NCBI GenBank assembly: GCA_964016885.1
Contig: OZ024744.1
Span: 66,030,001-66,094,000, forward strand
Reading direction: 5' to 3'
Source: Eledone cirrhosa
Taxonomy: Eukaryota
DNA length: 64,000 nt
Shown: in pieces, positions 46,805 through 50,988 of the stretch
Position numbering within the stretch: the first letter of the stretch is position 1
How the letters are laid out: the number at the start of each line of letters is the position of its first letter
Notes under the pieces: generated by a model
The model's database searches: none
The model's input: only the letters and a program-made list of their open reading frames with translations
What the model was told of the DNA's origin: nothing
Position numbers and translations under genes: made by a program

Positions 46805-47402
46805 CGAAGTGTGTCATATAAATGTTGACATAACGAAGGAAAATACCTTAACGGTTCAAGTTTTCCTTGGATAATACCTTAACGGTTCAAGTTTTCCAAG
46901 GAAAACTTGAACAGTTAAGGTATTTTCCTTGGTTATGTCAAAATTTATAAAACAAATTTCGTATTTTATCTGATGAATGCGTACCAAAGTTTTGGTAACC
47001 TTGAAAAATATATAATAGAATAAATAAGGTTTTATAAATATAGTTTCCATTTATTTAATATCATTGTATATATATATATATACATATATACGATATATCG
47101 TATATATATCGTATATCTACTCCAAAACTTGTTGAGTGCTTTATATCAGTTATAAAATATTTACTCGTTGTAACCCAACAATTTTAAATAAAACTTTTGC
47201 ATATATACATATATATTTAACTTAGGTGGTTCACCACTGGATAGAACTGGTCATTCCGTATTATAAACCATGATGTAATATTAGGAAAAACACTCGACTT
47301 TATGCAACTCAACCAACTTTGATGTTGAATCTTGTTGGTGGTGCGAGAAGGAAGATAATTATTATGGAGTCATTTTACTCAATAATAATAATAATAATAA
47401 TA

Positions 47403-47444
<42 letters not shown>

Positions 47445-47575
47445 ATAAATGCTCTGAAATAGCGATATATATGTGAATATAGACATAGAATATTCGAAAA
47501 TATTCTGTATGTTTATAATAAACATTTTGAAGACCTAATCGCTATAGAATAGAATACGTCACGTATTACAATTAG

Positions 47576-47664
47576 ATTCTCGACAAAAGCAAGGGAAGTA
47601 ATCTACGCGTTTCATTCTCGTTAGAAATCATCAGGACTACATATCCAGTGCTTTTGTCGAGAAT
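47576..47664 (-). ncRNA. Same hammerhead on the minus strand, first of 4 copies (cores at 47598, 47908, 48218, 48528)
   Basis: Exact reverse complement of the 48850-48938 motif. Confidence 0.85.
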
Positions 47665-48849
47665 GACACAGCTAGAGACTTATAGAATACTTAGCTGTGT
47701 ACAGGAACTGGTTTGAAAGAGCGGTTGCCGGTCCGGCAGAAATTAGAAATTGGAATAAATGCTCTGAAATAGCGATATATATGTGAATATAGACATAGAA
47801 TATTCGAAAATATTCTGTATGTTTATAATAAACATTTTGAAGACCTAATCGCTATAGAATAGAATACGTCACGTATTACAATTAGATTCTCGACAAAAGC
47901 AAGGGAAGTAATCTACGCGTTTCATTCTCGTTAGAAATCATCAGGACTACATATCCAGTGCTTTTGTCGAGAATGACACAGCTAGAGACTTATAGAATAC
48001 TTAGCTGTGTACAGGAACTGGTTTGAAAGAGCGGTTGCCGGTCCGGCAGAAATTAGAAATTGGAATAAATGCTCTGAAATAGCGATATATATGTGAATAT
48101 AGACATAGAATATTCGAAAATATTCTGTATGTTTATAATAAACATTTTGAAGACCTAATCGCTATAGAATAGAATACGTCACGTATTACAATTAGATTCT
48201 CGACAAAAGCAAGGGAAGTAATCTACGCGTTTCATTCTCGTTAGAAATCATCAGGACTACATATCCAGTGCTTTTGTCGAGAATGACACAGCTAGAGACT
48301 TATAGAATACTTAGCTGTGTACAGGAATTGGTTTGAAAGAGCGGTTGCCGGTCCGGCAGAAATTAGAAATTGGAATAAATGCTCTGAAATAGCGATATAT
48401 ATGTGAATATAGACATAGAATATTCGAAAATATTCTGTATGTTTATAATAAACATTTTGAAGACCTAATCGCTATAGAATAGAATACGTCACGTATTACA
48501 ATTAGATTCTCGACAAAAGCAAGGGAAGTAATCTACGCGTTTCATTCTCGTTAGAAATCATCAGGACTACATATCCAGTGCTTTTGTCGAGAATGACACA
48601 GCTAGAGACTTATAGAATACTTAGCTGTGTACAGGAACTGGTTTGAAAGAGCGGTTGCCGGTCCGGCAGAAATTAGAAATTGGAATAAATGCTCTGAAAT
48701 AGCGATATATATGTGAATATAGACATAGAATATTCGAAAATATTCTGTATGTTTATAATAAACATTTTGAAGACCTAATCGCTATAGAATAGAATACGTC
48801 ACGTATTACAATTAGATTCTCGACAAAAGCATAAGTCTCTAGCTGTGTC

Positions 48850-48938
48850 ATTCTCGACAAAAGCACTGGATATGTAGTCCTGATGATTTCTAACGAGAAT
48901 GAAACGCGTAGATTACTTCCCTTGCTTTTGTCGAGAAT
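48850..48938 (+). ncRNA. Minimal type I hammerhead ribozyme, first of 7 plus-strand copies spaced 310 bp
   Basis: gtagtc-CTGATGA-tttctaacgagaat-GAAA-cgcg-TA-gattac. Stem I GUAGUC/GAUUAC, palindromic stem III ACGCGU, predicted cut after GUA at 48910, enclosed by a perfect 16-bp inverted repeat attctcgacaaaagca/tgcttttgtcgagaat. Stem II is imperfect. Confidence 0.85.
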
Positions 48939-50988
48939 CTAATTGTAATACGTGACGTATTCTATTCTATAGCGATTAGGTCTTCAAAATGTTTATTATA
49001 AACATACAGAATATTTTCGAATATTCTATGTCTATATTCACATATATATCGCTATTTCAGAGCATTTATTCCAATTTCTAATTTCTGCCGGACCGGCAAC
49101 CGCTCTTTCAAACCAGTTCCTGTACACAGCTAAGTATTCTATAAGTCTCTAGCTGTGTCATTCTCGACAAAAGCACTGGATATGTAGTCCTGATGATTTC
49201 TAACGAGAATGAAACGCGTAGATTACTTCCCTTGCTTTTGTCGAGAATCTAATTGTAATACGTGACGTATTCTATTCTATAGCGATTAGGTCTTCAAAAT
49301 GTTTATTATAAACATACAGAATATTTTCGAATATTCTATGTCTATATTCACATATATATCGCTATTTCAGAGCATTTATTCCAATTTCTAATTTCTGCCG
49401 GACCGGCAACCGCTCTTTCAAACCAGTTCCTGTACACAGCTAAGTATTCTATAAGTCTCTAGCTGTGTCATTCTCGACAAAAGCACTGGATATGTAGTCC
49501 TGATGATTTCTAACGAGAATGAAACGCGTAGATTACTTCCCTTGCTTTTGTCGAGAATCTAATTGTAATACGTGACGTATTCTATTCTATAGCGATTAGG
49601 TCTTCAAAATGTTTATTATAAACATACAGAATATTTTCGAATATTCTATGTCTATATTCACATATATATCGCTATTTCAGAGCATTTATTCCAATTTCTA
49701 ATTTCTGCCGGACCGGCAACCGCTCTTTCAAACCAGTTCCTGTACACAGCTAAGTATTCTATAAGTCTCTAGCTGTGTCATTCTCGACAAAAGCACTGGA
49801 TATGTAGTCCTGATGATTTCTAACGAGAATGAAACGCGTAGATTACTTCCCTTGCTTTTGTCGAGAATCTAATTGTAATACGTGACGTATTCTATTCTAT
49901 AGCGATTAGGTCTTCAAAATGTTTATTATAAACATACAGAATATTTTCGAATATTCTATGTCTATATTCACATATATATCGCTATTTCAGAGCATTTATT
50001 CCAATTTCTAATTTCTGCCGGACCGGCAACCGCTCTTTCAAACCAGTTCCTGTACACAGCTAAGTATTCTATAAGTCTCTAGCTGTGTCATTCTCGACAA
50101 AAGCACTGGATATGTAGTCCTGATGATTTCTAACGAGAATGAAACGCGTAGATTACTTCCCTTGCTTTTGTCGAGAATCTAATTGTAATACGTGACGTAT
50201 TCTATTCTATAGCGATTAGGTCTTCAAAATGTTTATTATAAACATACAGAATATTTTCGAATATTCTATGTCTATATTCACATATATATCGCTATTTCAG
50301 AGCATTTATTCCAATTTCTAATTTCTGCCGGACCGGCAACCGCTCTTTCAAACCAGTTCCTGTACACAGCTAAGTATTCTATAAGTCTCTAGCTGTGTCA
50401 TTCTCGACAAAAGCACTGGATATGTAGTCCTGATGATTTCTAACGAGAATGAAACGCGTAGATTACTTCCCTTGCTTTTGTCGAGAATCTAATTGTAATA
50501 CGTGACGTATTCTATTCTATAGCGATTAGGTCTTCAAAATGTTTATTATAAACATACAGAATATTTTCGAATATTCTATGTCTATATTCACATATATATC
50601 GCTATTTCAGAGCATTTATTCCAATTTCTAATTTCTGCCGGACCGGCAACCGCTCTTTCAAACCAGTTCCTGTACACAGCTAAGTATTCTATAAGTCTCT
50701 AGCTGTGTCATTCTCGACAAAAGCACTGGATATGTAGTCCTGATGATTTCTAACGAGAATGAAACGCGTAGATTACTTCCCTTGCTTTTGTCGAGAATCT
50801 AATTGTAATACGTGACGTATTCTATTCTATAGCGATTAGGTCTTCAAAATGTTTATTATAAACATACAGAATATTTTCGAATATTCTATGTCTATATTCA
50901 TATATATATATATATATATATATATGTCCCAAGGCTCTGAAACCATCAACACCAAAAACACAGAGCTGGCATATGTAAGAACTGATTA

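What the first reader, a model, noticed from the sequence alone, without database searches (positions are those of the whole stretch)
48816..48938. The array inverts exactly at the ribozyme's 16-bp stem, making a ~2.9-kb palindrome with a hammerhead in its loop
Seen: the left arm stops right after attctcgacaaaagca and the sequence resumes in the opposite orientation ~19 nt upstream of the same 16-mer. So 47441-48831 pairs with 48923-50313 around a 91-nt spacer that holds an intact hammerhead core. Ribozymes point outward on both strands. Inference: a hairpin-guided template switch or twin priming on a circular template, as in inverted PLE insertions. Near-perfect identity of such an unstable palindrome implies a very recent insertion.
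Basis: partly seen in the sequence, partly recalled or inferred. Interest (0 to 1): 0.72.

Follow-up and report, generated by a model that had tools for sequence, protein, structure and literature searches.

The report
Twin-primed retrozyme; stem junction mostly coincidence
This mirror-image repeat is one of many two-armed insertions of a 310-base repeat with a predicted self-cutting RNA motif, likely written onto both ends of a DNA break by a Penelope-type jumping-gene enzyme, and its centre falling at the motif's stem is likely coincidence because sister insertions join almost anywhere in the unit.

Summary
The coordinates hold. The right arm runs on to 50900, so this is a 3.47-kb two-armed insertion (4.5 + 6.7 units) in (TA)n. 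The junction does not use the stem: unit position 13 joins position 231 with 1 nt of overlap, where a stem switch would join 13 to 250 with 16 nt.

Head-to-head arms are the family rule. [quoted passage not shown] Junction ends scatter over the unit (232 ends, p=0.12). Stem enrichment did not replicate (1.8x, then 1.16x). Non-stem joins at position 13 (22) equal one control position (~22) and exceed another (6). True stem-annealed junctions exist: 19 genome-wide, about 1%.

Both arms share one haplotype (65 of 69), and three loci copy minority variants in register. Best reading: a non-LTR retrozyme inserted by two-site twin priming from one RNA. No read of this junction, no RNA and no partner PLE was found. 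The scan has reported this family before in this genome, and the pattern in other genomes.

The parts
47406..47440 (.). (TA)n target, left part
47439..48831 (-). Left arm, 4.5 units of 310 nt; outer (RNA 3') end at unit position 165 (site B, with tail), inner end at position 13; unit position 1 = first base after the predicted cut
47439..47473 (-). 35-nt tail (unit 131-165), present at this outer end only
48328..48328 (.). Only within-array difference (unit position 206), in one unit of 11
48816..48831 (-). 3' strand of the 16-bp stem (unit 13-28) at the inner end of the left arm
48831..48832 (.). Head-to-head junction, unit 13 to unit 231, 1-nt overlap
48832..48922 (+). 91-nt unpaired centre, which is the start of the right arm's first unit
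48850..48938 (+). Predicted type I minimal hammerhead closed by the 16-bp stem (48850-48865 with 48923-48938); core 48880-48910; predicted cut after 48910
48831..50900 (+). Right arm, 6.7 units; outer end at unit position 130 (site A, no tail)
50901..50925 (.). (TA)n target, right part

Best explanation
The array is one two-armed insertion of a 310-nt non-coding repeat with a predicted hammerhead ribozyme, likely written by a Penelope-type reverse transcriptase priming from both cut strands of a (TA)n target on one RNA. Shown: the arms sit head-to-head; one ends at unit position ~130 and the other at ~165; they share one unit haplotype; and family junctions scatter and carry short microhomology. 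Inferred: the two ends are the two PLE start sites. One target strand starts at each, both enzymes run several units (round a circle or along a multimer), and the two cDNA 3' ends are joined wherever they stopped. The 16-bp stem is an RNA helix of the ribozyme domain. It serves as the annealing site in about 1% of sister junctions but not here, so the left arm stopping at its last base is mostly chance.
For: End pairing: one A end plus one B end in 66 of 66 two-armed insertions with both ends readable in the first set (34 A-anchored, 12 B-anchored, 19 unanchored, the window) and in 47 of 47 in a second set; no A-A or B-B. 1,243 exact A ends genome-wide. The A-B distance of about 35 nt matches the 30-40-bp PLE tail lying between two RT start sites (PMC11167929; PMC8557442). 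Microhomology >=1 nt in 77 of 94 clean joins (47% expected) and >=2 nt in 55 (18% expected). Same arm haplotype in 65 of 69 (shuffled mean 8.2, max 19). The window haplotype occurs only in its own 11 units. Minority variants are in register from the outer ends of both arms in L086, L183 and L196. Junction ends are near-uniform (232 ends, chi-square p=0.12). Stem pairs covary with a sister family (4 of 10 with double changes). A short direct repeat at both flanks in 6 of 9 informative loci versus 17% in shuffled pairs.
Against: No autonomous partner was found. Self-cleavage, transcripts and circles are untested. In vitro, PAc showed no strand preference of start site (PMC11167929), so the strict A+B pairing needs a step that is not yet shown. 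10 of 77 insertions in the first set show one arm only. L099 has arms that differ in their outer units. 102 variants occur in one arm only, against 3 loci with in-register minority variants. Junctions are not fully random: stem strands 1.8x in the first set, position 13 in 4 of 232 ends (0.75 expected), positions 1-10 in 0 of 232 (7.5 expected; post hoc). No target duplication can be read at this locus (pure TA).
Confidence: 0.72

Rival explanations
1. Hairpin-guided template switch: the 16-bp stem itself directed this inversion.
For: The left arm stops at the last base of the stem. 19 junctions genome-wide are annealed through the stem, against about 0.6 expected from uniform joining (3.5e-4 per junction, times an estimated ~1,800 junctions).
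Against: This junction is 13 to 231 with 1-nt overlap, not 13 to 250 with 16 nt. Stem enrichment of ends fell to 12 of 100 versus 10.3 expected in the second set.
Confidence: 0.06
2. Weaker, compatible form: the stem base is a pause or trimming site that raises the chance of an arm ending at position 13 or nearby.
For: Position 13 in 4 of 232 ends (p=0.007; one is a stem-annealed join); positions 13-28 at 1.9x and 1.7x in the two sets; none in positions 1-10 in either set.
Against: Genome-wide non-stem joins: 22 at position 13, about 22 at position 31, 6 at position 74, by my reading of the rows. Only two control positions. Ends favour AT-rich context generally.
Confidence: 0.25
3. Self-priming or fold-back: one cDNA folds back and is copied to make the second arm (the type of model proposed in PMC3846280).
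For: Explains the shared haplotype and in-register variants; proposed for head-to-head PLE repeats.
Against: A copied arm must be the shorter, tail-less one. The tail-less arm is the longer in 51 of 108 insertions, including this one (2,070 vs 1,393 nt).
Confidence: 0.07
4. Short insertion followed by DNA-level tandem amplification and inverted duplication.
For: A few arrays show recurring variants typical of slippage or exchange (L039, L067, L090). Local amplification is proposed in 10.64898/2026.07.22.740005.
Against: Cannot give two different fixed outer ends in 113 of 113 cases, nor an almost exclusively head-to-head orientation.
Confidence: 0.08
5. Fold-back read chimera or assembly artefact at this locus.
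For: No independent read of this junction was available.
Against: The arms differ in length and outer end and the flanks are not mirrored. The same rule holds across the family. Short-read data of another sample hold 8 listed head-to-head joints at scattered positions.
Confidence: 0.04

Closest known systems
Metazoan non-LTR retrozymes (Cervera and de la Pena 2020, PMC7229834, passages read; Li, Clavereau and Pollet 2026, 10.64898/2026.07.22.740005, parts 1-3 of 5 read)
   Same: Tandem ~300-nt non-coding AT-rich units, each with a type I hammerhead. Helix III of one pair capped by a palindromic tetraloop as in axolotl HHR_Amex1; U-U at the base of helix II as in HHR_Amex2. PLEs are the proposed helpers.
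   Different: The parts read describe tandem arrays only. Here most insertions are two head-to-head arrays with two fixed outer ends. Cleavage and circles were shown there and are untested here.
Insertions of endonuclease-positive Penelope-like elements (PMC8557442 and PMC3846280, passages read; PMC11167929, parts 1-2 of 4 read)
   Same: Inverted 5'-truncated copy next to the 5' end, a 30-40-bp tail at one end, AT/(TA)n targets, and two internal RT start sites about one tail apart.
   Different: No ORF. Both arms are multi-unit arrays. The tail is at exactly one end in 113 of 113, where the papers say 'optional' or 'often'. No partner identified.
L1 twin priming
   Same: Two target strands prime on one RNA, giving a head-to-head junction with microhomology.
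   Different: As recalled, the second L1 primer anneals at a variable internal site and the arms copy different RNA parts. Here both starts are fixed, and three loci show both arms copying the same stretch.

Membership tests
Non-LTR retrozyme | Tandem units of 150-450 nt, low GC, no ORF or LTR | tested here: met
   310-nt unit, 66% AT; no long open frame of ordinary composition listed within the array
Non-LTR retrozyme | Type I hammerhead in every unit | tested here: met
   11 of 11 cores in the array; stems covary; no Rfam hammerhead hit
Non-LTR retrozyme | Dispersed multi-locus family | tested here: met
   >=19,322 units and 1,243 exact A ends
Non-LTR retrozyme | Self-cleavage | not testable with these tools
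   needs in vitro transcription
Non-LTR retrozyme | Expressed as linear and circular RNA | tested here: inconclusive
   no RNA holder listed; only indirect evidence of a one-unit bottleneck
PLE-type insertion | Inverted 5'-truncated copy at the 5' end | tested here: met
   67 of 77 insertions in the first set, all beginning - then +
PLE-type insertion | 30-40-bp tail at one end | tested here: met
   ends at 125-139 versus 155-172; commonest 130 and 165
PLE-type insertion | Target-site duplication | tested here: inconclusive
   6 of 9 informative sister loci versus 17% control; looser test 33 of 108 versus 82 of 400; unreadable at this locus
PLE-type insertion | Unit homologous to the pLTR of an autonomous PLE | tested here: inconclusive
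   1 of 30 GIY-YIG loci and 2 of 30 ORF loci (one being the same place) held a 70-79% sister repeat; 29 of its 30 fetched loci showed no match to that ORF
Autonomous PLE | RT plus GIY-YIG ORF | tested here: not met
   none in the array
Stem-annealed junction class of this family | Join of unit 13 to 250 with 16-nt overlap | tested here: not met
   window joins 13 to 231 and is not among the 19 matches

The most novel reading that the evidence does not exclude
A Penelope RT pair engages one RNA at its two start sites, assigns one site to each cut target strand, and writes both strands at once and in register. That single step would explain the inverted copy and the one-sided tail of all PLE insertions. 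The ribozyme domain then shapes the last join: its 16-bp stem anneals the two cDNAs in about 1% of events, and ends are cleared from the ten bases after the cut site.
Probability: 0.5. Interest if true: 0.68.

Novelty: new member of a known kind. Interest (0 to 1): 0.45.

Why it matters
How PLEs make inverted copies and a one-sided tail is stated to be open (PMC8557442, passages), and copying of retrozyme RNA into tandem cDNA is proposed, not shown (PMC7229834, passage). This young family gives counts that separate the models: strict pairing of the two start sites, arm lengths that argue against fold-back copying, and a direct in vitro test. The particular junction flagged here adds little by itself; its value is as a negative control that exposed the real stem-annealed class.

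Tried and rejected
Stem as the homology of this junction: rejected. Stem enrichment of junction ends: seen in the first set, not replicated; one search used a stem window one base off (249-264), corrected. One search was a control pattern built one base off; it counted intact units instead, and the controls were rebuilt.

Read support: X20 and X21 gave no reads. X23 and X1 carry the family with majority alleles, not this locus. No RNA holder listed. Four guessed-RNA contig sets gave two 35-nt matches under 90% alike, which is no evidence either way.

Partner PLE: not found by GIY-YIG search, ORF search or sister-repeat search; each scored only top candidates. The loose TSD test did not discriminate.

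Rows dropped before counts: 6 of the 83 rows (5 duplicate or stitched parts, 1 short fragment); L230's first segment (sister-family stub, auto-called B-B); L186 (stub under 60 nt, not parsed). L206 was rejoined by hand. The B class was widened to 150-173 for L195, whose end call is shifted by a SNP. Three ends in the first set were stitched from overlapping loci.

Full report
Observation. Unit positions are counted from the first base after the predicted cut (GUA). The array is a 310-nt unit: 4.5 copies with sense on - (47439-48831) and 6.7 copies on + (48831-50900/50909), between (TA)n tracts. The left arm stops at position 13, the last base of the stem's 3' strand (13-28). The right arm starts at 231, not at the 5' strand (250-265), and the overlap is 1 nt. 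The 'hammerhead in the loop' is simply the first unit of the right arm; 9 of 116 other junctions have a like geometry.

Ribozyme. Read from the sequence, this is a type I minimal hammerhead: core CUGAUGA...GAAA, helix II with a U-U base, palindromic helix III, and helix I extended by the 16-bp stem (core layout recalled; compare HHR_Amex1/2 in PMC7229834). The region folds at z -6.6. Rfam gave no hammerhead hit. In 9 sequences including a 70-79% sister family, 97% of cells pair and 6 of 13 pairs change on both sides; the sequences are related, so this is support rather than a probability. The 258/20 pair is U-A in the family majority, U-G in many loci and C-G here. The stem therefore behaves as an RNA helix. 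Cleavage is untested.

Family. The 3.0-Gb genome G000 holds at least 19,322 units and 1,243 exact ends at position 130/139 followed by TA. With about 9 units per insertion that is roughly 2,000 insertions (estimate). I fetched 114 stretches: 20 best hits, 97 of the first 100 listed A ends on contig C1 or their neighbours, and 14 B ends lacking an exact A partner. First set: 77 insertions, 67 two-armed, all beginning - then +; 66 of 66 with readable ends pair one A (125-139) with one B (158-172). Anchoring fixes one end, so the test is the other end: B in 34 of 34 A-anchored, A in 12 of 12 B-anchored, A+B in 19 of 19 unanchored. Second set, all A-anchored: 47 of 47, with 3 cut and 5 single-armed (dropped rows under Tried and rejected). 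The window fits: B at 165 on the left, A at 130 on the right.

Does the stem set the breakpoint? Over 116 other junctions the 232 ends are near-uniform (p=0.12). Stem strands held 25 of 132 ends in the first set (13.6 expected) but 12 of 100 in the second (10.3 expected). Genome-wide, 19 junctions are annealed through the stem, two of them in one duplicated place. Of 10 fetched, 8 show the full 16-nt overlap and 2 were called shorter. That is about 1% of junctions and about 30 times uniform expectation (estimates), so a stem-annealed class is real, but the window is not in it. Of 45 arm ends at position 13, 19 are of that class, 4 run into TA flank and 22 (the window included) join elsewhere. 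The same pattern design gave about 22 head-to-head ends among 29 rows at position 31 and 6 among 10 rows at position 74, by my reading of the rows. A mild preference for position 13 is therefore open but not shown. No end fell in positions 1-10 in either set (0 of 232, 7.5 expected; post hoc, unexplained). Microhomology is the general rule: 77 of 94 clean joins overlap by >=1 nt (47% expected).

One template. The arms share their majority haplotype in 65 of 69 insertions with a full unit in each arm, among 29 haplotypes (shuffled mean 8.2). Units depart from their locus majority by 0.15 changes, while loci differ by 2.7. The window's haplotype occurs only in its own 11 units. This points to a one-unit bottleneck such as a circle, though a donor absent from this assembly is not excluded. 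Against a monomer circle every time: in L086, L183 and L196 a minority variant sits at the same distance from the outer end in both arms, and in L196 the two outer units of each arm are a different three-site haplotype. These suggest multi-unit RNA copied in register from one starting unit. 102 variants are in one arm only, and L099 is out of register. The tail-less arm is the longer in 51 of 108, which argues against fold-back copying.

Mechanism. Shown: layout, end pairing, scatter, microhomology, shared haplotype. Inferred: staggered nicks in (TA)n; a PLE RT, predicted dimeric, with two adjacent internal start sites whose interval is the tail (PMC11167929); one strand starts at each site; both run several units; the cDNA ends are joined by short homology. 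That paper saw no strand difference in start site, so the strict pairing is a prediction to test. Evidence for target duplication is thin.

Artefact and age. No read of this junction was available. Unequal arms, unmirrored flanks, the family rule and scattered head-to-head joints in short-read data of another sample make an artefact unlikely. The insertion is young (1 change in 3.47 kb) but average for the family (39th of 70).

Known and new. Retrozymes and their PLE origin are published, and so are inverted copies and one-sided tails of PLEs. Four searches (listings only, apart from the five papers named) showed no paper on two-armed retrozyme arrays or strict start-site pairing. Most subscription papers are outside the library, and I saw no supplements (Fig. 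S9 of PMC7229834, Fig. S2 of PMC11167929 and the closed files of the 2026 preprint may bear on this). The scan's own notes report this family and reading several times; my reading was set down before seeing them, and they are not independent evidence. No partner PLE was found.

Verdict. This is an ordinary member of a young twin-primed retrozyme family whose family-wide pattern makes an open question about PLE insertion testable. Interest 0.45.

Noticed in passing
window 46796 (-) to 46970 (+), hairpin 46824-46942: Another head-to-head pair of minimal hammerhead motifs of a different repeat family, around a 119-nt near-perfect hairpin (-72.5 kcal/mol), 450 nt left of the array.
   Followed up: partly
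window 50994, 17748, 17268, 43390, 2506 (+): Further minimal hammerhead-like motifs of other repeat families; one lies 70 nt right of the array.
   Followed up: no
L109:2449-2864, L153:230-650, L235-L264: Sister repeat family, 70-79% alike, with the same stem, hammerhead and apparently the same two end sites; older, mostly 1-2 units per arm.
   Followed up: partly
L196, L183, L086: Minority variants in register from the outer ends of both arms; L196 has two outer units of another haplotype in each arm.
   Followed up: partly
unit positions 1-10, all loci: No junction end in the ten bases after the predicted cut (0 of 232), with 19 in positions 11-20.
   Followed up: no
L057:1617 and L101: The same junction (167 to 256, 2-nt overlap) at two places with different flanks and haplotypes.
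   Followed up: partly
L067:1450-1721: 272 nt of unrelated GC-rich sequence captured between the two arms.
   Followed up: no
L051:2027-2204, L044:4524-4583, L074: Local re-copying of the junction region, and one tandem duplication of a whole insertion.
   Followed up: no
window 14189 (+), 19495 and 19944 (-): Open frames of 297, 286 and 153 codons that look like RT fragments, in opposite orientations (motifs recalled, not tested).
   Followed up: no
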